Assembly (NCBI GenBank): GCA_903813345.2
Contig: CAIIXF020000001.1
Span: 558,001 to 622,000 of the forward strand
Source of the DNA: Owenia fusiformis
Taxonomy: Eukaryota
Length of the DNA: 64,000 bases
Direction of reading: 5' to 3'
Shown: in pieces, positions 29,710 to 61,305 of the stretch
Position numbering within the stretch: position 1 is the first letter of the stretch
How the letters are laid out: every line of letters begins with the position of its first letter
Notes under the pieces: model-generated
What the model saw: the letters and a program-made list of their open reading frames with translations, nothing else
Told to the model about the DNA's origin: nothing
Database searches by the model: none
Position numbers and translations under genes: made by a program

Positions 29710-29810
29710 ATGAAGTTGCTACAGATCGTTTTGATCATCTTCACTCAGCTGATTTTACTCTTTCACATGAGCAGAGCCAAGTGGAAGAATGGAACTAAAC
29801 CGACTACAAG
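29710..29810 (+). CDS. Gene 1 first coding exon, signal peptide [33 protein letters not shown](R)
   Basis: Acceptor tttcag ends at 29636, in-frame stop upstream of ATG 29710, hydrophobic signal-like N-terminus, donor AG|gtaagt, phase 2 matches next exon. Confidence 0.8.
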
Positions 29811-35800: not shown

Positions 35801-38800
35801 CTGTCGTAATATGCGACATTGTTGGTCACAAAATACAAAAATTCCGTGATTATCACAAGAATACACGACCGGACTACAAAAATCATACGATCTTCTAAAA
35901 CTATTGTGATGAACAATATAATATCTGGAAAGCACCATGCTTTGCAAACCTTAATACAAACTTATCTCGTATTGCAACAAAAGCAAAAGAACAATTCTTC
36001 GAAACGTTGTAAATCTAACTATCTGTTTAATATAAAATGCAATTAGTTGACAAGCACTATTCTTAATGTGTTTGTCACACTGATATAACACAACTACTGT
36101 AAATGTTGTAAAGAAACACAACTATCAACTAAATTACCAAAATTGATGCCCTTCTGGAAATAGATATTACATATCTAAAAATATGAAGGACTTTCGGATA
36201 TAATCAATATCTTTAAAAGCAAAACTATGTGCCTTCCTTGAAACAATATGACAGAAACGCACTTAAATACATATTTATTCACTTAGATTCAATGCGCTGT
36301 CAGTAAAAAGCCATGCCTCGAGTTTCAGATTTATATGCACATTACATAATTGCTTCTTAGAAACCTAATATCTAAATGTTTTAATTAACTTAATTAACAT
36401 CCTATGCTATGCAATGCTTTGTAATAATTGCAGAAAATATACTTCCCAAAATAGTAATTATTGGGAACAGGTTACATCAACGTCAGAACACGTATACTTC
36501 ATTCAAAAACGTTGATTTGGTCAATAGCACTAAAGAAAATGTTCGTTGACTTCAATATGAAAAACTTTAGTTTATCGACCTGACACCGTTAAAACCCAGA
36601 TCAAAATCTTTGTGACCTTCGAAAGGGAAAAAGGTATGCCTCCTCGAACAATAAAACTAAATTTTCGAATCGGTTGTATGACAACTTACAACATTAACTA
36701 AAACTGTGTATAAACGCTTCGGTTGCTACTCGCAGAATAACACGATCCCATCGTGCATCCACTCACATAACCTACTCATGATCACATCATGTTATCCAAT
36801 CAGTTGAAATCGCGTTCGATTTCACTAACGCTAAGACGTTATATCAACCGGAAATAAAATAATTCAACTCTAATTTCAAACGTGTTGAATTTTAATTCTT
36901 CACGTACACATAGCAATGAAACACGGATTTGTAAAACCGATGTTCTTTTTGGTTAACGTTTTAACATTGTATTTTTGTAGATGGCTTAAATGTTCTTAAA
37001 ATTTTGTTTATTATGTGCATGTAGTAACTCATTCAATAAAATGTAAATGTTGTAAGTCGTCTGAATATTGTAAATAGTAAAAATAGCTTATATAAATATT
37101 GTAAATATATTTTGGCAGGGCTGAATTGATGGTGCAACTGTTGAGAAAGTATGAGAAGGGCAATGCACCAAGAAAAGGTAGTTGTCATTTTGTTTCAGAA
37201 CAGCAAGGATTACTCATTTTGAGGTGTCATAACTTTACAGGGTTATTTTCATAACTCTATTGTATAGTAATTAGCAAAATCTAAATGTAGCTAATTGGCA
37301 AGTAGCATACTTAACTAAGCTTGCATTCGCGAATGCAACTTTCGGCTGTCGGATATAGGATTAACCTTCGATTTAACAAAAGTTGCATTTACTAATACAA
37401 GCTTAGATTTAAAGGATAGGTATAAAGTGTATATATTCTTTAATGTTGTTCATTGAATCAAAACGAAATATACACTACCCTCCAAAAGTTTGGCAACCTT
37501 AGCTCCCTCATTGAACTACGTGTTCAAGCCTCTTTTTGTTTGAATTTTTATTTAAATAACTTGTGAGGAAAATACTATCGATTGAAATGTAACTTGACTT
37601 CATTTTCAATGCCTCCAAATTTTCCCAATTTTTCCTCAATTACAATAGGTCGAAAATTGATAATTTTTGAACATCGTTATTCCCATGTAAACCAATGGGA
37701 AATCGGGGTGGGTTCGGGGAAAATCTGATTTCAGGTATCTATCCAGTAAAAGATTCACCAAAATCTTAGGTAAGTAATAAGGAAAGCAAATTGACTACCC
37801 AACTTGTATTTTTGCAAGAACTAGCTATGGGATGGATGGATCTTCTATCATATGATCGACTTGAGCCAAACCTACTTTTTCCCATTTGTTTACATGGGAA
37901 TTTCAAATTTTAAAAACTCATCATATTTATCATCAATTTTCGACCTATTGTAATTGAGGAAAAAATTGGGAAAACTTAAAGGCATTGGAAATGAAGTCAA
38001 GTTACATTTCCACCAACATTATTATAAGTATTCACAGGTTATGTAAATAAAAATTCAAACATAAAGAGGCTTTAACAAGCAGTTCAATGAGAGGGCTATT
38101 GGAGGGGGTGTACAATAAAAAATAGAAATGTACTTACTTATTTATATTAAAGGAGCTAAAATCGTAAATTCATGAAATTAAAACGTAATGTTTATTCTTC
38201 AAGAAGCATTTATATATTTCAAAAGAACATACACACTTTGTTTTATAGGACCAACAGACGTGAAGCTCGGAATCTACATTAACAGTTTCTACTCCATTAG
38301 CGAACAAACTATGGTAAAGTAATTTAATCATTAAACATTGTCTACTACGGTTACGTAATTACATATTTGTAAATTGTGTAAAACTAACGTTATTGGTGAT
38401 TAAACATTATTGCTGGATATTGTATGCCCGCGGTGCAAGTGGATTGCGTAAAAATAGCTTATCCAAGCGCACCTACACTCACACAATTCTTTCGAAAGTT
38501 GTCACTGCTTATTGCAATGTAACTTCTGCAATGCTCTAGCAACGAGTAGACGCGGTTGACACATGCAAGCAGCCGATAAGGTTGCCACAGCGTAATTAGC
38601 GGTTTAAGTGCGCTTGAGTGAACTGCCTTTGTTGAAAACGTCTGACCATGTAAATTTGCAACGCACGCGCTCATCGTTCTGTTTTATGATACCTTGGGCC
38701 ATGGGGATAACTGATTGAATATTATGCAACATACTTGCGCCGCGGGCAGTTTAAAAACGCAGTCCATGTACAATGAAGGTATAGTCGTTATACTATTAAG

Positions 38801-41800
38801 CATTATGTACAACTATAGTAAAGCGTTAAATGACTCCTAGTATCGTAAATTCTTTGACATTATAATTTATTAGATTATTAAACATTATGTTACAGCATGG
38901 GCTTTCAAGAGAAAGTAGACTAAAGGGTTAATCCATGTGGTTAGTGTGTATACATATAGTAACGCATTACCATATCAGCATATCAAACATATTGAATTGA
39001 GTAATATATTCTGACTTAAAAATACAATGCTTCCCATGACAGCACTTGTGAGTGTCTCGAATAAGAAATCCCAGTAGCCCAACGGTTGATGGTACCCAGT
39101 AATGTTGAAAAGTACTTAAATGGTGTTACCAAGTTAAATTGGGTTTATACATGTTTTCGTTTATAATTATAACTTTATTTTATTGCTATCTTATCCAGGA
39201 TTATTCCATTAATATATACCTGCGACAAAGCTGGAACGATCCAAGATTGCAATTTGAACCATTCAACGGCAAAGATAAACACATGATTAAAATGGAAGAT
39301 GGTACTTGGGATTTGATTTGGACTCCTGATGTGTTCTTCCGGTAAATATAGCCAAATAGACAGCATTGATATTGTAGTCTTGCAATGCTTTTCAGGGCTC
39401 TAACTAGGGTTCCATCACATATTTATCCGGGTATTGAAGAGATTCGTAAAACATTTCAATTTTACTTCCATTGGAGATCAAGAAAGCTTGTATGTGCAAT
39501 TTAAGAATAGAAATAGTATTGTAATGTCCTCAAAAATTACAATTGGAATCCGAAATTTGTTGTTTTCATGAATTACCTTTTATGTCACTTGTAAACGTCA
39601 CCTTTCAGCAATGAGAAGAAAGCAGAGTTCCACTATGTCACGATTCCAAACCGTCTTCTAAGACTTACTGACAATGGCGACATTTGGTATGCTTCCAAGT
39701 ACGTAATGAATAACATTATCATCAGCTTATTGAATTATATTATATTGATACTTTATGTTTGATCATCTTCATATTACAGATTAATAAAATGATATAATAA
39801 CATTATATAATAGCATCACTGCCTCTTGAAAAGTTACATTAAGAAAACAATTGGAATTTTCACAGTTTGGAAATTATCCTATGTATGTAAAACTATTTCC
39901 CTTAAAGTTCATAAATATCACTTTTGACCTTTTAGAATTACTGCAACACTGTCGTGTCCGATGGATTTACACAAATATCCTCTTGATGAACAGCGTTGCC
40001 CGATGATGTTCGAAAGTTGTACGTATAGAATTATTCTTTTATTTTCAACCACGAAGATATATCTCAGTCAATATTTTCTGATATGCTTACTCCTCGATTT
40101 ATTGTTATTAAACGCATTCTTGTTAATGTTTTTATAAGTTTTGTTTTGAATAATTATCCTGAGTATGTTTTAGTGACTTGTTAAGACTAATTTATTATAT
40201 TATATAGTTTGTACACAAATAAAGTATAAGATGAGCGATGGTAAACTCTGATACGAATTCGAATTACTAAACTTATAATAACATGGGTTAAGTTTTTCGG
40301 ACCCCTTAGTGAACGCAGTGGTATGGTCTTTACATTCTCACGGTGTCACAAGGTCTGATAAGCATTACTTTGCTAATCTTTATGTCAAATTATGTATAAG
40401 CCTGAATGTTTTAGAAATGGAGCCAGCCTGCCTTTTAATCGCTTCATCGAGGATTCACCTGTCAGCTCGAAGAATTTTCAGATCAAATACACATTTCTCT
40501 CTCCATTTGAGTTACCAATTTTCGATATATATTTATATGCATTGGGTAATCATACATTAATTCGACACCCACTTCAATATGACCATAAAACTAAGTATAC
40601 TTAATATCATTACATTAATGATTCTTATTCATTTGCAGTCGGCAATACCATGGATACCATGATTTACAAATGGCTTCCAGAGCCTGTGGTGCATGAAAAA
40701 AACCTCAATTTACCACAATATGTCTTACAAAAACATGTCTTAATAGATTGTTCACAAAATTATACAACAGGTAGAATGTATTTCAGCTTGCATGTTGACC
40801 CTTCGTATATGTGTATTGTCCACAACATTATACTCGTATATGTGTAGTGTCCACAACATTATACTCGTATATGTGTAGTGTCCACAACATTATACTCGTA
40901 TATGTGTAGTGTCCACAACATTATACTCGTATATGTGTAGTGTCCACAACATTATACTCGTATATGTGTAGTGTCCACAACATTATACTCGTATATGTGT
41001 AGTGTCCACAACATTATACTCGTATATGTGTTGTGTCCACAACATTATACTCGTATATGTGAAGTGTCCACAACATTATACTCGTATATGTGTAGTGTCC
41101 ACAACATTATACTCGTATATGTGTAGTGTCCACAACATTATACTCGTACACTCCCCTCCATAAGTTTGGCAACCTTTTTTCCCCCATTGAACTACGTGTT
41201 AAAGCCTCTTTACCTTTGAATTTTTATTTACTTAACCTGCGATGAAAATACTTATACTATTGATGGAAACTTAATTTGACTTTAATTCCAATACCTCCAA
41301 ATTTTCTCAATTTTTTTCCTCAATTACAATAGGTCGAAAATTGATGATGAATTTGATGAATTTTTGAAAATCGACATTCCCATGTAATCCAATGGGAAAT
41401 AGTAGGTTTGCCGCAAGTCATATGACAGAATATCCATCTATCCGAATCCTTGCAAAAAATACAATTTAGGCAGGTAATTGAATTTGCTAACTTTATTTAA
41501 CAAAAAATTGATATGTTCCTTCAGGTTCAACAAAGTTATAGGGCTTTAAAGTCAAAATTGTTTTTCAAAAAACCTCTCCCATTGAAATAACACAGGAGGC
41601 GAAAAATTATTTTCAAAAATGACTTTGAAGCGCTGTAACTTTAATATTCATCAAATAAACTAAACACTTAGTGTTCAAAAAGGTTAGACAATTCAATTTT
41701 CTATATACAAATATTTTTTGCTGAATCTTTTACTGAAAAGATATCCTGATTTCTGATTTGCCCCGAACCCTCAATTTCCCATTGGATTACATGGGAATGA

Positions 41801-44800
41801 CGATTTTCAAAAATTCATCAAATCTATCATCAATTTTCGACCTATTGTAATTGAGGAAAAAAATTGAGAAAATTTGGAGCTATTGGAAATAAAGTCAAGT
41901 TACGTTTCCATCAATATTATACGTTAATATATCGCCGGTTAAGTAAATAAAAATTCAAACGTAAAGAGGCTTTAACACGTAGTTCAATGGAGAAAAAAGG
42001 TTGCCAAACTTATGGAGGGTAGTGTATATGTGTAGTGTCCAACATTATACTCGTATATGTGTAGTGTCTACAACATTATACTCGTATATGTGTAGTGTCC
42101 ACAACATTATACTCGTATATGTGTAGTGTCCACAACATTATACTCGTATATGTGTAGTGTCCACAACATTATACTCGTATATGTGTAATGTCCACAACAT
42201 TATACCTTGAGTGGGTCACCATTCCGTATTAGTCGATACAATTGACCATTTAATGACAAATAGTGACTTTATCCTACGGAAACGAAGATGATGTTTCACA
42301 GACGGTTAGTAGTGATACTGTATTGCCCATGCTCTGGGTAAATAATTGTAATTTCCAGAGACAACAATTACATATCTGTGGATAGAAGAATGAAAGAACC
42401 TTAGGGTCCCAACCCCCTTCTTTTACTTTGCAAAAACGTTAAGAATGAGAAAAGTTATGAAACTCCAATAATCGAAACTAATGTCACTTGTTGGGACGGT
42501 ACTACACGAGCTGGGTAGGCCGGTGACCTTCGTTATATCTCTAAATGAACTATTTCAACAGTTTAAAAGATTCGATGCAAATTCACATGTTAATACGGAA
42601 TGTGTCAATAAAACTTGAACTCACCGGGTTGTTGGGACCCTAAGGCTTTTTCATTCTCACATCCATATATATGTCTTTGTTGGCTATATATAGTACAATC
42701 AATTTCCTAGAGCGTGTGCTAAACAGTATCGCCATCAGGTCCTCTTTTGAAAGACAATCTGCGTTTCTGAAGAATAAGATCAATTTTATTCCGTATTAAT
42801 GTACAAATAAACAAATCGAATGGAATGTTGACCCACACTAGATGATTTGCAATGTCGTAGATTCTACCCTCTATGTTCAACCACAAACAACAAACGTTTG
42901 TTCACTACGCTATTCTTTTTCACGCGTTTTACATTCAGTGGTCAAGTTTAAAATACGAACACTAGTCATTCGCAAATACAACTGCCGGTTCCAGATTCAC
43001 CAATTATTTTGGAAAATTAAACATGTCATTTTGAAGTTAAAATAACGGACAGCCCTATAGCTATCTGACAGTGATTATATGACTTTTTATTATGCCAATG
43101 TAAACATCGATTATGATAAATAAAGCCGCTCGGTTGAACTAGCGAACAGATCTTAAGTCACTGTTACAAACTTAAGTCAGTGTTCGTAGCTGCTTAGATA
43201 GGCAGATTAATCCGTCATCCAGGTCAGTGATAGTGTTTGACTCAATATCTTGTAGCTACTGGTATGTATTGCAGGTACCATTCGTTTATTCACCCGGCAG
43301 CCGGCAGTTGAACTCCTGAATGCTACCAGAGTTGGTAGATTCAACGTGATGTACACATGTATAGCTCAACAATAAAAAACAAGAAGAGGATTGAATGATG
43401 CTGAATATGACCGGACGTGTCAGATTTGACCATTCAATATTAAGTTCGCTAGAAGTTCGCGACGAAAGACAATGAGCCAATTTGCTTGAGTTTACAAATG
43501 AATATAGCCACGTGGTTACATTTAACAAATTGTTTGTTGGAAGACAGAGACAAGGGTCGTTGGGTAAAGAATTTGACTTTCAAACCACCTAACCTTTATT
43601 GCATGTCGAGTGATCGTTGCTAGAAGGCGCACGTATGTCACCATGTTTAATTTAGAATATTAGATTTAGAGGTCGCTTTCATTATTTAATGTTGACCGTG
43701 TTGTTTAGTTCACACCAAGGGTGCATTGCAAGGTCGCTTTAATTGTTAAATGTTGACCGTGTTGTTTAGTTCATACCAAGGGTGCATTGCAAGAATGCGT
43801 TAAGTTAGCTTCTAGTAATGCGCCTCTGGTACATGTCGTTGTATGAGAATAATAATGTCCGAAATGTCATTTTTGAAAAAATGAGATTTTCACAGATTTC
43901 CACTATTTAAATCATCCTCTTTCTTCTGCGATATCCCCTTATCTCCATCTCTTCTTAATATCCTGCTTTTCAGTGTCAAATTGTCCTCCATAAAGATTTC
44001 AAATATACATTTTTACTTTGTTCTATGTACCATTTTAACCAATCAAATTGTTTGAATTACACCATGTGCCTAGGAATTATTAAATTACAATTTTAAACTG
44101 AAATTTGAATTTATTTTTGAAAAAAATGAATACTGAAATTTGTTTAAGAAAATCTTAAAACTCATGAATGTTTTAGTGAATTTACACAAAATGATAAAAT
44201 CAATATACAAAATGACAGATAGATAGTATTGAAGTTACAAACGCCTAAACTTTTAAAAATTGATTTCCCAGCTTCATAAAAATGTGAGTTGGGACATTTT
44301 TATTCTCATACGGCGATGTTTCTGGATTTCGTCCGTTAAATAGATCACAGTACAAAGTTACAGTTGTTGCCTTATCAATATAAACTTTACGGACTATTTA
44401 ATCCACCATAAATACAAGACGTGGTATTTGGGTTCCCCGAATGGTATATTCGTGTCAATTTAGGAAACATGCAAACTAAAGCTTTGTGTGACATCAGTAT
44501 CATACATGTCACATACCATGGACCAAGACACGATACAGTTTTCTCATACGAAGGTCGAAATCACTTGTTCGTTGTTCTTGCACTGTTGCAAAATTACGTC
44601 ATATTGTTATCTCCCATAGCTTTACCCATATACAAGCTATTGTTGCTATATACTTAAGATCGCTTTTAATCAAGGAGCTCTCAGTTCTAATAAAAACTTA
44701 TTTTCATTTTAGGATTGTGGTGGTCGACCATAAAATGATTATATTTGAAAGGTGTATAACATATAGCGTTCGGGTTAAACATTCTTTTGAATTCATTATA

Positions 44801-47800
44801 GTTACATATCATTTATTACAGTTGGCCATACTATGGATACACTGGTTTATAAATGGCTTGATACTGAACCAGTTGCAAAAGAGCCGGGTTTGCAGTTGCC
44901 CCAATTTAATCTTAAAAAGTCATTATTACACGATTGTTCCCAAAACTACACGACAGGTCGGTAGGCATCCGCAAATGCATGCATGTTTATGTTATGATAA
45001 AATAGGTAAATAACCTACCTCACCCTACTATCACACCAAAGTAGTTCTCACTACGTTCTCGAAAACGGGCTTAAACTGTGCACGAACGGATTTGACGTAC
45101 TAAGAACCCACTACTTAAGTTAAGAACTTAGAGCATGCTCAAAAATTTCTGGTGATTGTCACATTCTGCAATCAGAACGAGTGACAACGTACTAGTGTCG
45201 TACTTCAATCCTACTAGGGACGTATTACGACGTTGTGTAGTGAGGCGTAAATTGCAGCCGTGAGTACCCCCAATTAGGAAAATAGGGGATTATAAATGTG
45301 TTCTGCACGGATTAGGGACACGGATGTTTACTATTTTAAAACGAGTTCAACCGTTTTTAAATTATGTGGATAATTCAGTAACATATTAGGACGTATTGAG
45401 AACGAGGTACAACTAATTGTCAACTGGTTTAAGCTGATTAAGGACGTAATTGAACTGCTTGGATACATTGTGTACACGAGACGAACGCACAATTTAACCC
45501 GATCTAAACTTGATACCAACGTACTGCAGACGGAATAAAGACGAGATGAACGTATTAAAAACTGCTTATGAACGAATTAACAAAAATAGCTATCACACCA
45601 GAACCAGTTGTCACTGCGTTGTTCAAAACGATGCCGAATCGGTTTTAAACTGTGTGCGAACTGAATGAACGTAGCTACAACATTCTACGGTCTGTTTACG
45701 AACTTCATGGACTTTCCCGAACGGGGAATGTGATTCAGAATTTTGAATCGATTCAATCGATTTATAATCAGGTCATGATGACCTTCTAGATTAGGGGACG
45801 CGTTATACGACGTTGCACACCGACGTGGCGCGACCTGAACGAACTGCGAATGAGATGGACGTATTGAAGACTGTTTATGAACGAAGTAGCTAATTATTTT
45901 AGACATATTTCCCGACCACAGCCATATTGAGCCCGTTTTACGACGTTTTTGTAGGACTGGCAAGAACGGGTAAGAACTAGTTTGGTGTGATAGGGGGGTA
46001 ACATACATTGTATACCCTTTAAACAATACAGAGTGTCGCATGCTGGCCTTACCTATTCAAAACAGCTTATTGAATTTTGTGGAAACCAAAGCAATGTACA
46101 CTCATCTAAATCTCATTATAAACACATTATGCAAATGATCTTATCCGTGGCCCTGGGTTTGTTTACATTACTGCGGAATTAAACTGATCGTGTCAGTAAA
46201 AATGGTGACCTTACCCTTCAAAAGTTCGGCGCGCGATATCACAGAGGCAAGTCTCTGGCCATAGGGAACTGATTGTACTTTGTAAACAATTGTAAACCTG
46301 TCAACAGAATAGTTAAAATTAGCGAAGTGACCTCTTTTGTTTACAATTGACAAAACGTAAAAATAGAAAACTTGTTACGAACTGAGCAGAGCAGTGCCGT
46401 TCCACCAGTTAAAGATGTTCAATCCAATGCCACGTACGTGCTACCACGGAATTGCCAACCTCCAGGGGTATCTTATGAATGAGCAATTCCGAAGTAACAC
46501 GTGGTCTTGCGTTGTATGCCTACAACTTTGTCTGGAGAAATATTACAAATGACACTTTCCAGCGCAGTTCGTGTAAAGCTATGTCGCCTTTTCTATTTTT
46601 TACGTTTTGGCGAATGTAAACAAATGAACTTGCTTGGCAAAGGCTTTACACTTACAATTGTTCTCTATTCAAAGTACTATAAATTCCAAGAGACTCGAAC
46701 TTTTGAAACATTTTCGTATGGAAAGGATCAGTTATGTTTCGTGGTAATCAAGATATACTGTTAACACTTCTCTAAGCTACACAACCGGCATTATAATGGC
46801 CTTTTTATACCCACCACCCATTTCCGTTCACTCGACTCCCGTTAGGTTACAGTAAAAAAATTTCGTTATATCCGTTCATTCGCCATATAAATAGTAAACA
46901 AAGCATTATATTTCAGGAAGACAGCATTTTGTTATGTAATCGATTGACGAGAGATTCGAAACCAAAACTGAATGCTCTTTTTTCGTACACAAGTCTCACT
47001 TATTCAGAATACTTGTATTTTATATATCGCGAATCATGATAGATAATGTTTTACTAGTCGGCAACATTTCATTATTTGAACGTCACATAGTGGTGATTTG
47101 TATAAATTGACTTTGTGATGTCAGTTTGCATACTGTAGTCTCCTTAATCAGTTTTTCTATTGTAGCAAAATAATTGTCAGTGACACAAACAGCAAAAACA
47201 ATTATGCATGTTGTTTGCTAATGTAATGGCTTACTGTTGTGTGATGTAATGATGTAAAATATGTTTATGATAAGAATAATCTGCAAAATGCACTCTATTT
47301 GAAATTTCGATAAGGAACATAATACAAAAGAACATTTCAAGAGGTCTCATAGTCAATTTATGAGTCATACATGTCTCATTATAGACTAAATGACGTCATT
47401 GTAATTGTTAGAATTGTATGCAAATAATGTTATTTTTACATGGTGCATTTTGTTGTTTATTGCTGTACGTTTTTATTTTTATTCGACTTTACCTGTTCTT
47501 GTGCACTGTTTTTAGTTGGACACACAATGGAAACATTGGTTTACAAATTTCTGCCGACTGCAGTGGATTACGAGGCATTAGATATATCAAATTTTATATA
47601 CAAAGGGGAAGCTTTGACTGATTGTTCTCAAAATTATTCAACAGGTATTTTCAAATTATTTCTTATTGCATCACCTCGATCTTGCTGAATGACGAAAATG
47701 ACAGTTTGTTTACGAAATACCATGTTTCCTGGTTGTTGTTTTTTTGTAACATTTTGAAAATTATACTTTCAAACAACAGACCTAGGCTAAAGCCTTTAAC

Positions 47801-48971
47801 ATAATGCCAGGAGTTTCACACTACAAACGGAAATCATAATCAAGGTGTATTGTAAGAATTCTACGTCATATCACACCACTTATGTGCATGTATTGTACTG
47901 TGTCTAAGTGTGCTTTTGCATGTTGTGTAATTTGTGAAATGTAGATCAGTTCGGTGTGAAAGTATATTATGAATTATTACTCCTTTATAAATATTATTTT
48001 AAGATATATGTACAGTAAAACTTAAGGAGGGGTGATGAAATAGCACAAAATGATACAGACAGATTAAATTCAAATGTTGCAATCAACTCCTTAAATAGTA
48101 GAAATTATCAGTGACCTAGTTCGTAAGAATAGCAGTTTAATCAAATATAAATTGATAAATAGAATAAAAATTATCACATTTTCTTGAAATAATACAACTG
48201 CAAATATTCAGCAACTAATATTAAAACATTCATGTACATTCCAGGTGCCTACCCATGCCTTCAAATCGATTTTATTCTCAAAAGGGACATTGGATACTAT
48301 ATGATCCAGCTCTATATACCCAGTGTTTTGATAGTTATTCTATCATGGGTAGCCTTCTGGATTAGCATTGATGCAATTCCAGCTCGTGTCACAATTGGAC
48401 TTCTTACAGTGCTTACAATGACGACACAGAGCACAGGAGCAAGATCTCAACTTCCAAGAGTATCTTATATCAAAGCCATAGACGTTTGGATGTCAACCTG
48501 CTTGTTGTTTGTGTTTGCTTCGTTACTTGAATTTGCTGTTGTAAATGTGTTTTCACGAAAGGAGGTCAAAACAAGGACAGCTGCAACTTTGAAGAGAAAA
48601 CGAAAAGAAGACGAGATGGCACTCGAACAGGTTTGTAAAACTATGCATGTTCTCTGACTAATACCTTACGAAGGTAATCGTTATTCGGAAAATGTTCTCA
48701 TCAATACATTTCATTACAAGTGATTAATATGATTATTATAAGATATGAACTAATATATAATATTTGGTATTCATTTCAGATAAATATAGTTACACACAAT
48801 GGAAGGGACTTCAAGGAAGTGAGAGAGAAAATAACCAAAACAAAATATATAAGAGACCCTGACGGAAGGCATAAAGCTAGAAGGATAGACAAAATTGCCC
48901 GAAAAGCTTTTCCTGGTGTTTTTGTAGCCTTCAATCTTATATACTGGGTAACATATAGCTTTTCAGAATGA
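29710..48971 (+). CDS. Gene 1 (spliced): glycine-receptor-like Cys-loop ligand-gated chloride channel subunit, 415-417 aa depending on cassette exon. Join 29710-29810, 37119-37177, 38249-38313, 39199-39341, 39609-39698, 39936-40018, [40639-40770 | 44822-44956 | 47516-47644], 48245-48630, 48780-48971
   Basis: All junctions are GT-AG and phases are consistent (1251 nt with cassette A). Contains signal peptide, loop D YLRQSW, loop [12 protein letters not shown], Cys-loop [15 protein letters not shown], loop C disulfide C...GAYPC, M1-M4, and the PAR motif before M2 (anion selective). Confidence 0.93.
31256..31829. mobile_element. Tc1/mariner-type MITE
   Basis: CAGGGGAGCCAAAAAGGTAAC / GTTACCATTTTGGCTCACCCTG-TA. 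Confidence 0.6.
32141..32466. mobile_element. EnSpm/CACTA-type MITE
   Basis: CACTCTTAAAAAT / ATTTTTAAGAGTG with 2-bp TSD TG; AT-rich internal ttactt repeats. Confidence 0.75.
33390..33926 (-). mobile_element. Older diverged H1 MITE copy, inverted
   Basis: Reverse-complement similarity to 17406-18197; ends GTTTGGTGTGATAGTAGGG. Confidence 0.75.
33930..34748 (+). mobile_element. H1 MITE copy
   Basis: Near-identical to 17406-18197; TTA flanks; 13-bp terminal duplication. Confidence 0.85.
37119..37177 (+). CDS. Gene 1 exon: (R)[19 protein letters not shown](G), N-terminal helix
   Basis: ttggcag acceptor, gtagtt donor; LL..Y....P pattern of Cys-loop receptor N-termini; phases 2/1 fit neighbours. 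Confidence 0.78.
37473..38110. mobile_element. Tc1/mariner-type foldback MITE (family T1), diverged copy
   Basis: TA-CACTACCCTCCAAAAGTTTGGCAACC...GGAGGGGGTG-TA; long internal inverted arms. Confidence 0.8.
38249..38313 (+). CDS. Gene 1 exon: (G)[21 protein letters not shown] (beta1)
   Basis: ttttatag acceptor, ATG|gtaaag donor; resembles the GlyR IFINSFGSI..TTM segment. Confidence 0.92.
38425..38748. mobile_element. Unclassified inverted-repeat element
   Basis: TGCCCGCGGTGCAAGT / ACTTGCGCCGCGGGCA arms. Confidence 0.55.
39199..39341 (+). CDS. Gene 1 exon: [17 protein letters not shown]...IWTPDVFF(R) (loops D and A)
   Basis: Within ORF 39139-39345; ccag acceptor, gtaaat donor; canonical WxDPRL and WxPD motifs. 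Confidence 0.95.
39609..39698 (+). CDS. Gene 1 exon: (R)[29 protein letters not shown](K) (loop E)
   Basis: tttcag acceptor, gtacgt donor; NEK..FH.VT..N.LLR...NG motif. Confidence 0.95.
39936..40018 (+). CDS. Gene 1 exon: (K)[27 protein letters not shown] (Cys-loop)
   Basis: ttttag acceptor, gtacgt donor; C-x13-C signature. Confidence 0.95.
40340..40355 (+). promoter_or_regulatory. Candidate splicing docking site ACGGTGTCACAAGGTC
   Basis: Complementary to related motifs at 44481-44498 and 47109-47125, and to local 40297-40313. Confidence 0.4.
40639..40770 (+). CDS. Gene 1 cassette exon A: (F)[43 protein letters not shown](G)
   Basis: 132 nt, phase 1-1, atttgcag acceptor, gtagaa donor, open frame. 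Confidence 0.92.
40804..42205. repeat. 31-bp minisatellite CGTATATGTGTAGTGTCCACAACATTATACT (~11 + ~6 copies) split by a T1 MITE
   Basis: Direct reading. Confidence 0.95.
41149..42024. mobile_element. T1 Tc1/mariner-type foldback MITE
   Basis: ~250-bp TIRs starting CACTCCCCTCCATAAGTTTGGCAACC; TA TSD confirmed by the interrupted minisatellite unit. Confidence 0.92.
42208..42840. mobile_element. Degenerate foldback MITE
   Basis: GTGGGTCACCATTCC / GGAATGTTGACCCAC outer arms; CCTTAGGGTCCCAAC / GTTGGGACCCTAAGG inner arms. Confidence 0.6.
43669..43792. repeat. ~62-bp direct tandem duplication
   Basis: aggtcgcttt...atgttgaccgtgttgtttagttca...ccaagggtgcattgca occurs twice. Confidence 0.9.
43832..44318. 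mobile_element. Unclassified TIR MITE
   Basis: GTATGAGAATAATAATGTCC / GGACATTTTTATTCTCATAC arms. Confidence 0.55.
44822..44956 (+). CDS. Gene 1 cassette exon B: (F)[44 protein letters not shown](G)
   Basis: 135 nt, phase 1-1, ttacag acceptor, gtcggt donor; not shown as such in the ORF track, translated by hand. Confidence 0.9.
45023..45998 (+). mobile_element. H1 MITE, longer variant, 66 nt downstream of cassette B
   Basis: Same TIRs and body as 17406-18197 with extra internal segments; flanks TCA/TAA. Confidence 0.82.
47516..47644 (+). CDS. Gene 1 cassette exon C: (F)[42 protein letters not shown](G)
   Basis: 129 nt, phase 1-1, tttttag acceptor, gtattt donor; within ORF 47440-47688. Confidence 0.87.
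48245..48630 (+). CDS. Gene 1 exon: end of loop C, beta10, M1-M3 and start of intracellular loop
   Basis: 386 nt; [10 protein letters not shown]...YIPS...SWVAFWI...[17 protein letters not shown]...[13 protein letters not shown]; ccag acceptor, gtttgt donor. Confidence 0.96.
48780..48971 (+). CDS. Gene 1 last coding exon: intracellular loop and M4, stop TGA
   Basis: tttcag acceptor; [24 protein letters not shown] is a typical M4 motif. Confidence 0.95.
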   Translation: MNIVTHNGRDFKEVREKITKTKYIRDPDGRHKARRIDKIARKAFPGVFVAFNLIYWVTYSFSE

Positions 48972-51900
48972 CACGATTCCAGGGTTTGGATATACATATT
49001 TGCTCTATAATGTGAATGAAACTATCATTTTGCATAGATGGATACCTTCTCAGTGAAGACTATGTAAATTATGCAGATTTTGTGATATCATTTTCTTGAT
49101 GAGCCACGTCAACTCCATTACAATTGTATAGTTATATTTATACTACTTGCTATGCTATAAGCTTATGGAAAAATCATCAAATACAGCACCACCCAAATCA
49201 TTAAGGTAAGAACTAATAGGTCGCAATAACATATCAAAATGCTTGAGTTGGTCTAGTTTAGTGCAAGTATTTTATGAATTGTGATATGATTTTATAACCG
49301 TGGATGGTCAAACTATTAGTCCATGGTATGAAATCTCTAGGACTTCTAATAAAGAAGCTGGTAGCATACTATGGCGCAGCGATATTTGACCTAATAATAA
49401 CATACCTTAACAATTTTTATTATAACCATTTAATGTACTTCCGGCTTTTAGGCTGAATTATGCCTGTCACTAGCAGAGGACAAAAAATTACCAAAAACTA
49501 AAATCAATACCCTAAATTATGTAATCCGTGCATCGGCGTTTTGTATGATTTCTCAGCCATTAATGTAGTAAATGTTACAAATGAATTACTTTGAATTCAT
49601 ATTAGAATGAGAAATGCTTAAATTATGCAAGTTTTTCACAAAATGGGTCTCGATATATTTTGATATATAGGCTGTTATTCCGCGGTGAACATTGTCAATA
49701 AAGGAGGGCCTCTTCTTTTTCCTTGACTAATTGCCACTCCTTCTAAAATTCTATTTCTTGTTGTTAGCTAGTGCTCAGTTGCTTATACAACAACCATCAA
49801 GACTTGGTCGAATTCATGAGTCAATGAGAAAAATCGCTAAATATCTTCCTAAAATCTGATGATATCCAGCGGTAAGGTCAAATAACCATCAGAAAATCTG
49901 ATGATAGCCAGCAGTAATGTCGAGGAATAATTGTAAGGCGTTCGATTGCATATGACTCTTACAGATTATTAGACATGCCCTTGGTATATATGAACATTCC
50001 AATACCTCTGTAACATTGAGTTGGATATAAATATTACATATTGTTATCGTCTTATGTATTATAAAACATGAACAATAACTTGTTATTTGACCCCTTGCGA
50101 TAATATGGATAAACTCTGGTAATAAAATGTTTTAAATGGTAAGAAAACTAACATGTTCGCAATCATAAATTACCTAAATATTCGACACACCTTTGTTGAA
50201 TCTGCTTTTCTTGTATTTGAAAAATCAAACAAAATCCGAAAAGTAGTGTAATTACACCAATTAAACACTGGCATTTTCAGTAAAATTATAGCAAATGTTT
50301 ACATTATGATAATCTAGTTTAGTGTCCATATACTTAAAATAACGGTCTGTGTCTTATGAAACTTCGAATCAAAATATTTACATTGATGAAAGACATTTTT
50401 CAAACCGAAAGGCGGAAGTTTTTTCAGCAAATGGTATTTAAAAAAATCAAGACATATGCACCTCCCTACATATTGCTTCAAATGTTGCTGCCCTATAGTG
50501 TGCTATGGATCATTTATATTTGGAAGTCATACCATAGACTATATCGTTCACATCAAATATGCATTAAATCACATTCTAAAAGTAAGATGGACTTAATTGT
50601 ATGTGTCATACTTCACTTATGTACAAATGTAAATGATATAAGATGTAAAAATCACCAACGATCATGTGCACATTGTTCACATTGACATATCATAACAATT
50701 AATTTGTAAATATGTTCATTTAGTATAAAAAGAGAGAAATGTGTGTATTACTAAAGAAACTTGAAAATGTAAAAATCATGTTCGATTCAAATTCGAAAGT
50801 AGTCTCTTTTTCAAATTAACTTCACTAGTTATGTTAATAAGCTTAGCTGCATCTATAATGTAACATGCCACTAGTCTATCAGTTACACTAACTTGTCTGC
50901 ACATGGGGACATTTTCTTACACCGTTCTATATCGTAATTTAGAAGTGAAGAATTGTCACGTGTTTATCGATTTTATGTTGCGGGAACACCATATTTAGTC
51001 GGCTCCACTCTTATACACATTCTTACTATTCATCCTATCGTCTCTATGTTTAATTGAGAAAAGACATATTGCTTTCGTTTATCTATTACGGTGCCATACT
51101 ACCAAGCGAAATTTAATAGGGATCAATATAGATGGCATATCATGCGTGAGTTGTTCTTCATCCTTGTCACATTATTTTTATGTTGATATTGATATTCAAA
51201 ATACATTACATTGATCTTTGACTAAGTTGATAATAATTCTTCTCGTTTCATAATCATTTTTCTAGATTTGCTAGATTTGATTAAATTAATTTTGGGCAAT
51301 GAATTGTATTTAGATGTTAAAAAATGCCATCTTTTGACGTCATCGAGGCCTTTAGGATAACCATATATAGAAAAGGTATCCTGACAAAGATCCGTTTTAA
51401 CGTTTTAACGAGGAATGAATGGCGTATTGTGCAGGTGGTTTAAATATGCTGTGCTACCGATTTCACCTTCCAATTCTACAACTTTACAGTCATACAAATA
51501 CTTAGTTATAAAGATACTTGGTATCATATATTGCTGATGTCATCAATGGAACTGCTAATAGACTTATTTCAGAATAATGATTTGAACAAATTGATAGCTG
51601 TATTTTGGTATTGTATCCTATAAAATCTTTATGTGAAATAAAAATGTAGCTATCAAGTTTAGTCTTAACTTTAGTTTTAGGCGTTCTGATAATCCAAAAT
51701 GTTTAAAATGTTATTCAAAACAAATTAGAAATATTTATAATTATTGTGTTTTCATTTCCCGAACATCGTAAAGTATTGCGACCTGTATTGGAATTAGGGT
51801 ATTGTATGTATTTCTCCAGTTCTTTACAAGTAAGGGCTTTGTAAGACTTTTCAAAAAAGTGTGTTGGTTTATGCTGAATTTAAGTAGTATAACCTTGAAA

Positions 51901-55485: not shown

Positions 55486-55593
55486 AGCTCGTTGAAGAAT
55501 TGAATTGAATAAAAAATAAATGAATAAATAAAGAAATATAGGGTAATCGTACAGGTACAAGTCGGACTACACTTTCAACCAACCCATGCTCCC

Positions 55594-56458: not shown

Positions 56459-59107
56459 CTGGAAAATAGTATTTAAACACATTGAGTCAAAATAAGGAGG
56501 TTATACATCGGGAGATGTACAAATTGTTTAAATTTATACAAAGGGATCCGATGATTTTTCCGAGTTTGACGGATATATCACTCTGAATGAAGATTCCAAT
56601 ATACAATCCAGACCTTTTTATATCATAGATGATATTAAAAAATAATGATAAGTTATCAAAACTCAAACACTATTAAACGTCTTTAGGAGGCAAGTATGCA
56701 GAATATATAAGTACATGGAATATAACAAAATAGTAATCGTATTTATCAAAGTGATTTGCTTTATATAATTTATATTACAGCGACCATGGTATGGGAGAAA
56801 AAAAGGAGGATGACATAATGATCACATTCTCCATAATAAGTTTGGCAACAGGGGGACTCGATTTGCTCACCTATCGAAGCATACACTCCCCTCCATAAGT
56901 TTGGCAACCTTTTTTCCACCATTGAACTACGTGTTAAAGCCTCTTTACCTTTGAATTTTTATTTACTTAACCTGCGATGAAAATACTTATACTATTGATG
57001 GAAACGTAATTTGACTTTAATTCCAATACCTCAAAATTTTCTTAATTTTTTTCCTCAATTACAATAGGTCGAAAATTGATGATTAATTTGATGAATTTTT
57101 AAAAATCGACATTCCCATGTTAACCAATGAGAAATGGTAGGTTTGCCGCAAGTCATATGACAGAATATCCATCCATCCGAGTCCTTGCAAAAAATACGAG
57201 TTAGGCAGGCAATTGAATTTACTAACTTTATTTAACAAAAAAATGATATGTTTCTTCAGGTTCAACAAAGTTATAGGGCTTTAAAGTCAAAATTGTTTTT
57301 CAAAAAACCTCTCCCATTGAAATAACACAGGAGGCGAAAAATTATTTTCAAAAATGACTTTGAAGCGCTGTAACTTTAATATTCATCAAATAAACTAAAC
57401 ACTTAGTGTTCAAAAAAGTTAGACAATTCAATTTTCTATATAAAAATATTTTTTGCTGAATCTTTTACTGAAAATATATCCTGATTTCTGATTTGCCCCG
57501 AACCCTCCATTTCCCATTGGATAACATGGGAATGACGATTTTCAAAAATTCATCAAATTATCATCAATTTTCGACCTATTGTAATTGAGGAAAAAATTGA
57601 GAAATTTGGAGGTATTGGAAATAAAGTCAAGTTACGTTTCCATCAATAGTTTAGATTATTTCATCGCCGGTTAAGTAAATAAAAATGCAAACGTAAAGAG
57701 GCTTTAACACGTAGTTCAATGGGGAAAAAAGGTTGCCAAACTTATGGAGGAGAGTGTATGCTAATAAATGTCCAAACTATCAGGAACAGAATTGAGATTT
57801 AATTATTCACAGATTTTAATAATTTAATTATTCACAGGCTTTTTTAAGTGATAAGATGAGAACCTCCGGTTACCAAACTTAATGAGGGGAGTGTAGCTGT
57901 TTACCTGCTCAATCGTCACATGCTCTTCCTTTAACTTCCTGTTCCCATTAAGTGTCCTATTTCTCCTCATTTCCTTTCTTGAAAATACATTAACAACAGC
58001 AAATTCTAAAAGGGACGCAAACACAAATAATAAACACGTTGACATCCAAACGTCTATGGCTTTAATATAAGATACTCTTGGAAGTTGAGATCTTGCTCCT
58101 GTGCTCTGTGTTGTCATTGTAAGCACTGTAAGAAGTCCAATTGTGACACGAGCTGGAATTGCATCAATGCTAATCCAGAAGGCTACCCATGATAGAATTA
58201 CTATCAAAACACTGGGTATATAGAGCTGGATAAGATAGTATCCTATGTCTCTCTTGAGTATAAAATCGATCTGTAGGCATGGGTAAGCACCTGGAACACG
58301 ACATAACGGGGGTAAAAGTCAATATACAAATCCATTTTAAAATCATAAGCGCAGGAAATGTTTACGTTTTGATGAGTTAAATCTTCTAAGTGAACAATTG
58401 ATAAGTTTATCATATACAGTCATTCACTTGGTTTAACCATTAATGATCCAAATCTTAAAATGTGTTCTGCAATTTATATTTTAAAACATTCATACAAACA
58501 CTGTATAGCACAATACTCCACAGTCAGACATAATACATTTTCCCACGAAATTGAACAGCAAACACGCCATATTGGTTATTGATTGCCACCAATACTCGTT
58601 TTTTCCCGAACAAAAACCTACCTGTGGTATAGTTTTGAAGACAATCCATCAATTTATTACCTACATATCGGTATTGTGGCAGTTCAAGATTGGAATCACC
58701 AGCGACTGGCTTAGGTTGTAACCATTTGTAATGCAATGTTTCCATTGTATTGCCAACTAAAATCATATAATTATCAGCCCTCTTGAACGAGGCGTCCTAC
58801 CATGTGAACATCATGCAGTTCCATGGTCCAATTTGGATGAACTATAACGTTTATGTTTTCATTCACTGTCCAAATTGGGCCAAGTTCATTGATGTCGTGT
58901 TTAGACCACCATACAGCATAGTTTTACAGTGGTCTAAATCAGGACATGAGGTGGTCACCTGGTTTTTACCTGTGCTGTAGTTCTGTCTGCATGTTTGCAA
59001 TTCATAGCCGACGTATCTGAATTGAGGTAATTCTGGTTCCTGCCCCATATCTAATGGTTGTGGGTCTGTTAGCCATTTAAAGTTAACAGCATCCAACGTG
59101 TTTCCGA
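56279..59107 (-). CDS. Gene 2 (partial, 5' exons beyond window): paralogous GlyR-like chloride channel subunit. Join complement of [59107-58970 | 58756-58622], 58290-57905, 56458-56279
   Basis: Same exon structure as gene 1, including a 386-nt TM exon; GT-AG sites; PAR motif; M4 [23 protein letters not shown]. Confidence 0.92.
56884..57756. mobile_element. T1 Tc1/mariner-type foldback MITE in the last intron of gene 2
   Basis: Very similar to 41149-42024; TA flanks. Confidence 0.92.
57905..58290 (-). CDS. Gene 2 exon: end of loop C, M1-M3
   Basis: 386 nt, ttccag acceptor, CAG|gtaaac donor; protein nearly identical to gene 1 through M3. Confidence 0.96.
58622..58756 (-). CDS. Gene 2 cassette exon Y: (F)[44 protein letters not shown](G)
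   Basis: 135 nt, phase 1-1, ttttag acceptor, gtaggt donor (minus strand). Confidence 0.9.
58970..59107 (-). CDS. Gene 2 cassette exon X: (F)[45 protein letters not shown](G)
   Basis: 138 nt, phase 1-1, atttgcag acceptor, gtaaaa donor (minus strand). Confidence 0.9.
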
Positions 59108-61283: not shown

Positions 61284-61305
61284 ATGGGAATAACTTGTGT
61301 GAAAT

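What the first reader, a model, noticed from the sequence alone, without database searches (positions are those of the whole stretch)
40639..47644. Three-way tandem cassette array encoding the ligand-binding loop B/F/C exon of a GlyR-like chloride channel
Seen: three homologous, intact, GT-AG-bounded phase 1-1 exons (A 132, B 135, C 129 nt) lie between the single Cys-loop exon and the single TM exon. They keep G[NH]TM[DE]T..YK and DCSQNY[TS]TG but differ strongly across loop F/beta9. Established: this segment shapes agonist sensitivity in Cys-loop receptors, and insect Rdl uses two mutually exclusive versions (exon 6) of the equivalent region. Inference: including more than one would duplicate beta strands and skipping all would delete them, so the exons are probably mutually exclusive and give three receptors with different ligand-site loops on one pore. 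A three-member array in a non-arthropod GlyR-like gene is not something I recognise as described. Automated gene models would likely keep only one cassette.
Basis: partly seen in the sequence, partly recalled or inferred. Interest (0 to 1): 0.9.

Follow-up and report, generated by a model that had tools for sequence, protein, structure and literature searches.

The report
Alternative ligand-loop exons, annelid chloride channel
An annelid neurotransmitter-gated chloride channel gene carries three interchangeable copies of the exon that builds much of its ligand-binding pocket, and RNA data show at least two of them are used one at a time, the same trick insects use in their GABA receptor.

Summary
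Three homologous exons (132, 135 and 129 nt), each AG..GT-bounded and phase 1-1, lie between the Cys-loop exon and the TM1-3 exon. The gene is an Owenia fusiformis (annelid) anion-selective Cys-loop receptor.

Spliced transcript contigs from two public runs show exon6->B->TM directly, and a cassette-A piece bounded exactly at its exon ends. In one run A (4.37) plus B (13.9) add up to the constitutive depth (18.3), so A and B are used one at a time.

C was absent from both contig runs. Only one raw read, inferred from depth arithmetic, may join exon 6 to C. C has nevertheless been kept by purifying selection: synonymous sites are saturated, and dN is 0.13 in the conserved flanks.

The deposited models are A-only and a B+C double model; the RNA contigs do not show the B+C form. 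A tail-to-tail paralog has two such cassettes. RefSeq isoforms of two nemerteans swap the same exon, three ways in Lineus.

The receptor carries the lophotrochozoan glutamate-binding arginines, so it is probably a GluCl rather than a glycine receptor.

Verdict: a real mutually exclusive exon cluster, and a new member of a known kind. It is analogous to RDL exon 6, and I found no paper describing it.

The parts
29710..29810 (+). Exon 1 of gene 1 (start codon, signal peptide)
   Evidence: tblastn of P0022. The joined CDS equals P0022.
37119..37177 (+). Exon 2 (59 nt), the version used in the deposited models
38249..38313 (+). Exon 3
39199..39341 (+). Exon 4 (loop D Y-L-R and loop A F-F-R)
   Evidence: The joint 39340->39608 (GT..AG, cut +1) is seen in contigs of X9 and X10 and in one X13 read.
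39609..39698 (+). Exon 5 (loop E region)
   Evidence: The joint 39698->39936 is seen in X9 and X10 contigs.
39936..40018 (+). Exon 6, the Cys-loop exon. It ends with the first base of the Phe codon of loop B (ES-F).
40639..40770 (+). Cassette A (132 nt; loop B residue Asn). It is used in deposited model P0022.
   Evidence: In run X9 a 187-nt contig (depth 4.37) is laid only on 40639-40767, with 29-nt ends that do not continue into the introns.
40789..40794 (+). UGCAUG 19 nt downstream of the cassette A donor (candidate Rbfox-type intronic enhancer)
   Evidence: The role is inferred.
44822..44956 (+). Cassette B (135 nt; loop B residue His). It is the major form in the RNA contigs.
   Evidence: Joints 40018->44822 and 44953(+3)->48242(+3), both GT..AG, are seen in X9 (depth 13.9) and X10 (depth 23, within one 1790-nt contig).
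44976..44985 (+). Two overlapping UGCAUG copies 20-24 nt downstream of the cassette B donor
   Evidence: The role is inferred.
47516..47644 (+). Cassette C (129 nt; loop B residue His). It is the most divergent cassette: ISNF replaces the family-wide LPQ[FY]. Expression is not shown.
   Evidence: Depth is 0 in X9, X10 and X15 and 0.18 in X13. C is present, together with B, in deposited model P0023.
48245..48630 (+). TM1-TM3 exon. It starts with the second Cys of the loop C disulfide (AYPC) and holds the PAR anion-selectivity motif.
48780..48971 (+). Last exon (TM4 and stop codon)
   Evidence: The joint 48627(+3)->48777(+3) is seen in X9 and X10.
58970..59107 (-). Paralog (gene 2) cassette 2a (138 nt, AG..GT, phase 1-1)
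   Evidence: It is used alone in deposited model P0037.
58622..58756 (-). Paralog cassette 2b (135 nt), 213 nt downstream of 2a
   Evidence: It is used alone in deposited model P0038, and together with 2a in P0039.
57905..58290 (-). Paralog TM1-3 exon

Best explanation
Gene 1 (29710-48971, + strand) of Owenia fusiformis encodes an anion-selective Cys-loop receptor subunit of the spiralian GlyR-like/GluCl group.

One exon has been tandemly triplicated. It runs from the residue after the loop B Phe-Gly, through beta8, loop F and beta9, to the first Cys and the Y-T-T of loop C. Splicing puts exactly one copy between the Cys-loop exon and the TM exon.

The result is subunits with one pore and one complementary-face core but different principal-face and loop F residues. 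The loop B residue is Asn in A and His in B and C, where most relatives have Tyr. Almost all of loop F differs.

What is shown:
- A and B are each spliced in alone, and their ratio differs between samples.

What is inferred:
- C is a third alternative, rare or restricted to a stage or cell type.
- The swap tunes agonist potency or selectivity, or subunit assembly.
- The agonist is probably glutamate, because the loop A and loop D arginines of the lophotrochozoan glutamate site are present.
- Choice is probably made by trans-acting splicing factors. UGCAUG sits 19-24 nt downstream of A and B, but not near C.

What prevents double inclusion is not known.
For: Anatomy:
- The three cassettes are intact, homologous and in the same phase.

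RNA:
- X10 has one 1790-nt spliced contig (depth 23) reading exon 4 | exon 5 | exon 6 | B | TM | last exon, with GT..AG joints 40018->44822 and 44956->48245. That is B alone, without A or C.
- X9 has a B piece (190 nt, depth 13.9) with the same two joints.
- X9 also has an A piece (187 nt, depth 4.37), laid exactly on 40639-40767 with 29-nt ends on each side.
- In X9, 4.37 + 13.9 = 18.3, which equals the depth of the constitutive contigs (18.3 and 18.2).
- A is absent in X10, so usage differs between samples.

Selection:
- Synonymous divergence between every cassette pair is saturated (dS >1.2 or undefined), while dN is 0.30-0.65.
- In the 21 conserved flank codons, B and C differ at 9 codons synonymously and at 4 non-synonymously, with dN 0.13.

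Recurrence:
- The tail-to-tail paralog has two cassettes, with deposited either/or models P0037 and P0038.
- RefSeq isoforms that are otherwise identical swap this exon in Lineus (three versions in one gene, two in another) and in Tubulanus (two versions).

Identity:
- Pfam Neur_chan_LBD and Neur_chan_memb both match.
- The best solved relative is GlyR alpha-2, E=4e-110.
- The PAR motif and the loop C Cys pair are present.
- Y-L-R and F-F-R align with Y96, R98 and R135 of Aplysia GluClAc2. Those residues are described as glutamate-binding in PMC4178172 (section 21 read) and PMC4338433 (passages read).

Analogy:
- RDL exon 6 variants diversify loops C and F and are expected to change agonist potency (PMC4019635 and PMC2064938, passages read).
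Against: - Cassette C has no contig in X9 or X10 and no depth in X15. The only hint is depth arithmetic in X13: 83 nt on exon 6, plus 59 nt in the C bin, plus 9 nt left over, equals one 151-nt read. That is not a listed joint.
- C is the most divergent cassette. It sits on a long branch and lacks the near-universal LPQ[FY] motif.
- The A junctions themselves were not among the 15 joints shown; 19 more were not shown.
- Only four runs were laid, and the two raw-read runs were sampled at about 6 and 12 in 100 and barely cover the gene.
- The deposited models P0023 (B+C) and P0039 (2a+2b) include two cassettes. All combinations stay in frame, so double inclusion cannot be excluded by frame or by NMD.
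- No ligand, current or splicing factor has been tested.
- The UGCAUG observation was made after looking. The motif is not enriched in the window overall: 42 found against 38.3 expected.
Confidence: 0.6

Rival explanations
1. This is a two-way switch plus a relic. Only A and B are used, and C is an exon copy that is no longer, or almost never, spliced in and is on its way to decay.
For: - C has depth 0 in X9, X10 and X15.
- C has the longest branch.
- It lacks the conserved LPQ[FY] motif.
- It has no UGCAUG within 200 nt downstream, unlike A and B.
Against: - C keeps an open frame, an AG with a good pyrimidine tract, a GT donor, and both conserved ends.
- Against B, its conserved flanks show 9 synonymous and 4 non-synonymous codon differences, with saturated dS. 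Constraint has therefore acted for most of its history.
- One X13 read may join exon 6 to C (inferred).
- Lineus uses three versions of this exon in its annotated isoforms.
Confidence: 0.3
2. The cassettes are not strictly exclusive. Transcripts with two cassettes (B+C, as in deposited model P0023) are real products.
For: - P0023 (B+C) and P0039 (2a+2b) are in the public annotation.
- All combinations stay in frame.
- No mechanism enforcing exclusivity was found.
Against: - In X9 and X10, B is joined directly to the TM exon, and the C bin has depth 0.
- In X9, A and B depths sum to the constitutive depth.
- A doubled beta8-loop F-beta9 segment would not fit the conserved Cys-loop receptor fold. 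This is an inference from the alignment to GlyR alpha-2.
- Gene predictors commonly chain in-frame duplicated exons.
Confidence: 0.07
3. The choice between cassettes is unregulated noise, and the protein variants are functionally equivalent.
For: No functional data exist. The flanking motifs are the same in all cassettes.
Against: - The A:B ratio differs between runs: 24:76 in X9 and 0:100 in X10.
- The cassettes have been kept apart long enough to saturate synonymous sites, while their ends stayed conserved and loop F diverged.
- The same exon is alternatively used in a paralog and in nemerteans.
Confidence: 0.05

Closest known systems
Insect RDL (GABA receptor) exon 6 alternatives (6a/6b, formerly c/d)
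   Same: - Both are tandemly duplicated, mutually exclusive exons in an anion-selective Cys-loop receptor.
- Both diversify loops F and C of the agonist site on a constant pore (PMC4019635 and PMC2064938, passages read).
   Different: - RDL exon 6 has two alternatives; here there are three copies, two of them shown in RNA.
- RDL is an arthropod GABA receptor and is not orthologous.
- Here the cassette also carries the variable loop B residue (Asn or His).
- Here every combination stays in frame.
Three-way alternative exons in insect Cys-loop receptors: GluCl exon 3 (3a/3b/3c) and nAChR alpha6 exon 8
   Same: These are three-member mutually exclusive clusters in pLGIC genes that arose by tandem exon duplication. 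Sources are PMC2064938 (passages read) and PMC13512814 (search listing and start of abstract only).
   Different: They affect other exons: the loop D region in GluCl and TM2 in alpha6. They are arthropod genes.
RefSeq isoforms of nemertean GlyR-like genes (Lineus longissimus cluster of P0060; Tubulanus polymorphus cluster of P0053)
   Same: - The same exon is swapped between otherwise identical isoforms.
- Lineus has three versions in one gene and two in another; Tubulanus has two.
- The Lineus gene with two versions lies in the clade sister to the annelid clade that contains the Owenia genes.
   Different: - These are database gene models only. I saw no RNA evidence and found no publication.
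- The three-way Lineus gene belongs to a different paralog clade.
- Orthology of individual cassettes is unresolved: supports on the nodes that place the Owenia gene 1 cassettes are 8-56.
Aplysia GluClAc2 (lophotrochozoan glutamate-gated chloride channel)
   Same: - It is the closest functionally characterised receptor retrieved, at 48% identity over 89% of P0022.
- It shares Y96, R98 (loop D) and R135 (loop A) by alignment.
- It shares the loop C Cys pair and the PAR motif.
   Different: - It lies in a separate molluscan clade in my tree.
- Its loop B is S-Y-G-Y where Owenia has S-F-G-N/H.
- PMC4178172 has no occurrence of 'splic', 'exon', 'isoform' or 'variant'.
Vertebrate glycine receptor alpha subunits
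   Same: - They are the best solved relatives: GlyR alpha-2 E=4e-110.
- The cassette aligns with the GlyR segment from loop B (FGYTMND) to the N-T-G of loop C.
   Different: - GlyRs have Phe at the GluClAc2 Y96 position and Ala at the loop A position, where Owenia has Tyr and Arg.
- From memory, not from any call: this segment is one exon in vertebrate GlyR genes, and the known vertebrate GlyR alternative exon pair (alpha2 3A/3B) affects a different exon.

Membership tests
Cys-loop (pentameric) ligand-gated ion channel, anion-selective two-Cys-loop group | Neur_chan_LBD plus Neur_chan_memb domains | tested here: met
   One search gives PF02931 at E=2.4e-46 (158 bits, cut-off 26) and PF02932 at E=3.8e-38 (132 bits, cut-off 28.1) for P0022. 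P0022 equals the A isoform joined from the window.
Cys-loop (pentameric) ligand-gated ion channel, anion-selective two-Cys-loop group | Cys-x13-Cys loop, a second Cys pair in loop C, and a PAR motif before M2 | tested here: met
   Read directly from P0022 and the window translation: [27 protein letters not shown] and DAIPARV. The first loop C Cys lies in the cassette and the second in the TM exon.
Cys-loop (pentameric) ligand-gated ion channel, anion-selective two-Cys-loop group | Ligand-gated chloride current | not testable with these tools
   Needs expression and electrophysiology.
Lophotrochozoan glutamate-gated chloride channel (GluClAc2-type binding site) | Loop A arginine (R135 of GluClAc2), plus loop D arginine (R98) and Tyr or Phe at position 96 | tested here: met
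   In the alignment, F-F-R-N-E-K and Y-L-R-Q are present in both Owenia genes, where vertebrate GlyRs have F-F-A and F-L-R. The residue roles come from PMC4178172 (section 21 read) and PMC4338433 (passages read).
Lophotrochozoan glutamate-gated chloride channel (GluClAc2-type binding site) | Orthology with a receptor shown to be gated by glutamate | tested here: inconclusive
   In the cassette-masked FastTree of 43 sequences chosen by me, the Owenia genes sit in an annelid-plus-nemertean clade. That clade is separate from the molluscan GluClAc2 clade. No characterised flatworm GluCl was included.
Lophotrochozoan glutamate-gated chloride channel (GluClAc2-type binding site) | Activation by glutamate | not testable with these tools
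   Needs oocyte or cell recordings.
Mutually exclusive exon cluster from tandem exon duplication | Adjacent homologous exons of similar length, in the same phase, each with its own splice sites | tested here: met
   132, 135 and 129 nt, all AG..GT, phase 1-1, with pairwise E from 5e-15 to 3e-9.
Mutually exclusive exon cluster from tandem exon duplication | Exactly one member per mature transcript | tested here: met
   Met for A and B. In one search, B is joined directly to exon 6 and to the TM exon in X9 and X10. A appears as a separate piece in X9. The depths 4.37 + 13.9 equal the constitutive 18.3. No cassette-to-cassette joint is among the 15 joints shown (19 not shown). The sampling is small: two contig runs.
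Mutually exclusive exon cluster from tandem exon duplication | Every member is expressed | tested here: inconclusive
   A and B are expressed. C has depth 0 in three of the four runs, and one inferred read in X13.
Mutually exclusive exon cluster from tandem exon duplication | A known mechanism that enforces exclusivity (frame/NMD, steric hindrance, U2/U12 incompatibility, or competing RNA pairings) | tested here: not met
   - All combinations stay in frame.
- The introns between cassettes are 4051 and 2559 nt in gene 1.
- All donors are GT and none matches the U12 consensus as I recall it.
- The duplex scan gave a best energy of -24.8 kcal/mol, against -23.3 and -25.5 in two shuffles.

The mechanism remains open. 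This does not bear on whether the exons are exclusive.

The most novel reading that the evidence does not exclude
The loop B/F/C exon is an old spiralian hot-spot for mutually exclusive splicing, present before annelids and nemerteans split and parallel to arthropod RDL exon 6. Under this reading the swap does more than tune potency. By exchanging the loop B Tyr-position residue (Asn or His) together with all of loop F, the three Owenia cassettes would give receptors with different preferred agonists from one gene. Examples would be glutamate against beta-alanine, GABA, taurine or glycine, or a proton- or metal-sensitive His form. Cassette C would be a cell-type-restricted third receptor.
Probability: 0.2. 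Interest if true: 0.7.

Novelty: new member of a known kind. Interest (0 to 1): 0.45.

Why it matters
- It shows that swapping the loop F/C exon of an inhibitory Cys-loop receptor is not an arthropod peculiarity. Annelids and, by annotation, nemerteans do it in a different receptor lineage. This exon therefore looks like a recurrent evolutionary handle on ligand recognition.
- It gives a natural three-allele experiment on which residues of loops B, F and C set agonist potency and selectivity in the lophotrochozoan GluCl/GlyR-like group. Only the Aplysia receptors of that group appear as characterised in the papers I read.
- It corrects the public Owenia gene models. The B-only form is the major transcript in the two contig runs laid, yet it is not among the deposited proteins I retrieved. 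The deposited B+C form is not supported by those runs.

Tried and rejected
- The look-up of sequencing runs (after two busy errors): no RNA holder listed. The runs later laid are judged only by what the lay shows.
- Fourth cassette: tblastn of A, B and C against the whole window found none in gene 1.
- Tandem double cassettes in other species' models: a motif scan of all 225 proteins fetched by then found two cassettes in one protein only in the two Owenia models P0023 and P0039. The other five multi-hit proteins were fused genes or unrelated matches.
- Cassette orthology: an IQ-TREE of 34 cassettes is unresolved. The nodes that place the Owenia gene 1 cassettes have supports of 8-56. I draw no conclusion on whether the arrays are ancestral or convergent.
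- Docking-site/selector RNA pairing: 30-nt windows of the first and last introns were folded against the inter-cassette introns. This gave 58 duplexes below -20 kcal/mol and a best of -24.8. Two dinucleotide shuffles gave 38 and 25 duplexes, with bests of -23.3 and -25.5. Nothing stands out, and two shuffles is a thin control.
- NMD policing is rejected, because all combinations stay in frame.
- Steric hindrance is rejected for gene 1, where the introns are 4.1 and 2.6 kb. For the paralog's 213-nt intron it looks unlikely, because a possible branch site lies about 20 nt from the acceptor, but it is not excluded.
- U12-type splice sites: none seen (the consensus is recalled).
- 5' splice-site strength: cassette donors match GTAAGT at 3-4 of 6 positions and constitutive donors at 4-6 of 6, so there is no clear contrast (counted by eye).
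- Whole-genome search: no genome is held for this window. Other paralogs and other oweniids could not be examined.
- The third protein-database search and the representative, atlas, structure and complex tools were not used. I judged that they would not answer whether C is spliced.

Full report
**Observation**

Each is preceded by AG and followed by GT, and each is open only in the frame that begins at its third base.

The upstream exon ends at 40018 with the first base of a Phe codon, which every cassette completes. The downstream exon starts at 48245.

tblastn of the cassette peptides against the whole window gives A-B E=5e-15, A-C E=4e-10 and B-C E=3e-9. It finds no fourth copy in this gene. 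The only other significant hits are two cassettes on the minus strand.

**The gene**

A search with the TM exon found 2255 proteins at E<=1e-3 among 2655 candidates, of which 120 were listed. Two Owenia fusiformis proteins were 100% identical to the query.
- P0022 (416 aa) contains A only.
- P0023 (460 aa) contains B and C one after the other.

Joining exons by coordinates reproduces both proteins exactly. The exons are 29710-29810, 37119-37177, 38249-38313, 39199-39341, 39609-39698, 39936-40018, the cassette, 48245-48630 and 48780-48971.

B-only (417 aa), C-only (415 aa), skip-all (372 aa) and A+B+C (504 aa) are also open.

P0022 has both Pfam channel domains. Its best solved relative is glycine receptor alpha-2, at E=4e-110. 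It has the Cys-x13-Cys loop, the loop C Cys pair and the PAR motif.

**RNA**

The run search listed no holder that is on record as RNA. I laid two runs kept as contigs (X9, X10) and two 2026 raw RNA runs of the same species label (X13, X15) on 39100-48980.

X9 and X10 behave as spliced transcriptomes.
- In X10, one 1790-nt contig (depth 23) reads exon 4, exon 5, exon 6, B, TM exon and last exon. Its GT..AG joints are 40018->44822 and 44953(+3)->48242(+3).
- In X9, B is a 190-nt piece (depth 13.9) with the same joints.
- In X9, A is a 187-nt piece (depth 4.37), laid exactly on 40639-40767. Its 29-nt ends on each side do not run into the introns.
- In X9 the constitutive contigs have depths of 18.3 and 18.2, which equals 4.37 + 13.9.
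- A is absent in X10.

So A and B are alternatives, each transcript has one of them, and the ratio differs between samples.

The A joints themselves are not among the 15 joints shown; 19 more were not shown.

C has depth 0 in X9, X10 and X15. In X13 the gene is barely covered. The bin depths correspond to 83 nt on exon 6 and 59 nt in the bin that holds C. With 9 unlaid bases that makes one 151-nt read, and X13 shows no read on the exon6->B joint and no depth on A. This is consistent with a single read joining exon 6 to C. It is my arithmetic, not a listed joint.

**Selection**

All cassette pairs, including those of the paralog, have saturated synonymous divergence (dS above 1.2 or undefined) and dN of 0.30-0.65.

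In the 21 conserved codons at the two ends, B and C differ at 9 codons synonymously and at 4 non-synonymously, with dN 0.13. C has therefore been under purifying selection for most of its history.

C is nonetheless the most divergent cassette. It has a long branch and carries ISNF where nearly all relatives have LPQ[FY].

**Relatives**

A paralog lies tail to tail on the minus strand. It has two cassettes, 2a (59107-58970) and 2b (58756-58622), separated by 213 nt. Its deposited models contain 2a only, 2b only, or both. Its 5' exons lie outside the window.

I examined the isoforms of 10 protein clusters.
- Three clusters have isoforms that are identical except for this exon: Lineus longissimus with three versions, a second Lineus gene with two, and Tubulanus polymorphus with two.
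- Six clusters have a single version: Lingula, two further Owenia paralogs, Dimorphilus, a third Lineus gene and Gigantopelta.
- In the Biomphalaria cluster only two of four members could be read at this place, and they agree.

In a cassette-masked tree of 43 sequences that I chose:
- The two Owenia genes are sisters (support 0.97).
- They group with Ridgeia and Dimorphilus (0.94).
- That annelid clade is sister to the nemertean clade holding the two-version Lineus gene (0.96).
- The three-version Lineus gene and the Tubulanus gene lie in another clade.

Alternative use of this exon thus occurs in at least two paralog lineages. The cassette tree cannot say whether it is ancestral or repeated.

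**Function**

Alignment with GlyR and GluClAc2 fixes what the cassette encodes. It begins right after the loop B Phe. It holds the G-x-T of loop B, with Asn in A and His in B and C where most relatives have Tyr. It then holds beta8, loop F, beta9, and the first Cys and Y-T-T/Y-S-T of loop C.

From memory, not from a call: the Tyr at this loop B position, together with the preceding Phe, influences agonist selectivity in the vertebrate glycine receptor.

Both Owenia genes have Y-L-R in loop D and F-F-R in loop A. These are the positions of Y96, R98 and R135 of Aplysia GluClAc2. Those residues are described as binding glutamate in PMC4178172 (section 21 read). The loop A arginine is described as the lophotrochozoan glutamate motif in PMC4338433 (passages read). 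Vertebrate GlyRs have F-L-R and F-F-A.

I therefore expect a glutamate-gated chloride channel, with the cassettes changing potency, selectivity or assembly. [quoted passage not shown]

**How one cassette is chosen**

This is not resolved.
- Frame/NMD, intron length in gene 1, and U12 sites are excluded.
- A duplex scan for docking and selector pairs did not exceed its shuffles.
- UGCAUG lies 19 nt after the A donor, 20-24 nt after the B donor and 14 nt after the TM exon donor. The nearest copy after C is about 240 nt away.

With about one plus-strand copy of UGCAUG per 2.7 kb, two sites within 40 nt of three donors is unlikely by chance, roughly 1 in 1000 by my Poisson estimate. I noticed this after looking, however, and the motif is not enriched window-wide (42 found, 38.3 expected). 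The link to Rbfox-type factors is recalled knowledge.

**Novelty**

Mutually exclusive exons in Cys-loop receptor genes are well described in insects. Examples are RDL exons 3 and 6, GluCl exon 3 with up to three versions, and nAChR alpha6 exon 8 with three (PMC2064938, passages read; PMC13512814, listing only).

Three full-text searches aimed at molluscs, annelids, lophotrochozoans, glycine receptors or Owenia turned up no paper describing this exon array. The Aplysia GluCl paper I read does not mention splicing. Two further searches concerned RDL exon 6 and Aplysia GluCl.

These searches cover open-access texts only. The original Aplysia cloning paper (Kehoe et al. 2009, seen only in reference lists) and all supplements were not available.

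The isoforms are already present in public annotations, so this is a new member of a known kind, and modestly interesting.

Noticed in passing
window 31131-31189 (+): There is a second copy of exon 2. It is also 59 nt, bounded by AG and GT, and in the same phase. It reads [21 protein letters not shown], which is closer to the paralog's exon 2 than to the annotated exon 2 at 37119-37177. Swapping it in keeps the frame. Including both copies would shift the frame, so it may be a second mutually exclusive pair. It lies outside the stretch laid with reads, so there is no RNA evidence.
   Followed up: partly
window 48239-48563 (+) and 57972-58296 (-): The TM1-3 exons of the two inverted paralogs are 92% identical in DNA over 325 nt. 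Codons 36-70 (end of TM1 through M2) are 99% identical, with dS 0.04. The cassettes and the TM4 exon are saturated, and the 80 nt of upstream intron are only 36% identical. This looks like a gene-conversion tract.
   Followed up: partly
window 40774-41236 and 41960-42298; arms 41176-41434 / 41740-41998; copies at 56882-57181 and 57591-57759: A repeat element starts 4 nt after the donor of cassette A. It has arrays of a 31-nt tandem unit and 259-nt inverted arms (88% complementary). Related copies lie in the paralog's intron between its TM and TM4 exons. RNA reads pile up on it.
   Followed up: no
window 45018-46003 (intron between B and C): This stretch has very high read and contig depth in all four runs, up to thousands in X9 and X10. 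Reads run off both ends into unlike sequence. It is most likely a dispersed, transcribed repeat. A similar ORF occurs at about 34417-34719.
   Followed up: no
window 61303-63006 (+): A 566-codon open frame without introns lies upstream of the paralog's cassette 2a, presumably inside that gene's intron. Its only Pfam hit is a CCHC zinc knuckle near the C-terminus, below the curated cut-off (18 bits against 20.8).
   Followed up: partly
proteins P0060, P0192, P0194, P0197 (Lineus longissimus isoforms): Besides the loop B/F/C exon, these isoforms also differ in residues 201-216/219, the Cys-loop exon region. That gene may therefore have a second alternative exon set next to the first.
   Followed up: no
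window 54668-55500: A tandem array of a 40-nt unit (15 register-shifted copies reported) lies in the space between the two tail-to-tail genes.
   Followed up: no
window 58812-58817 (-): In the paralog, the single UGCAUG near the cassettes lies in the 213-nt intron between 2a and 2b, 56 nt upstream of the 2b acceptor. This placement differs from gene 1.
   Followed up: no
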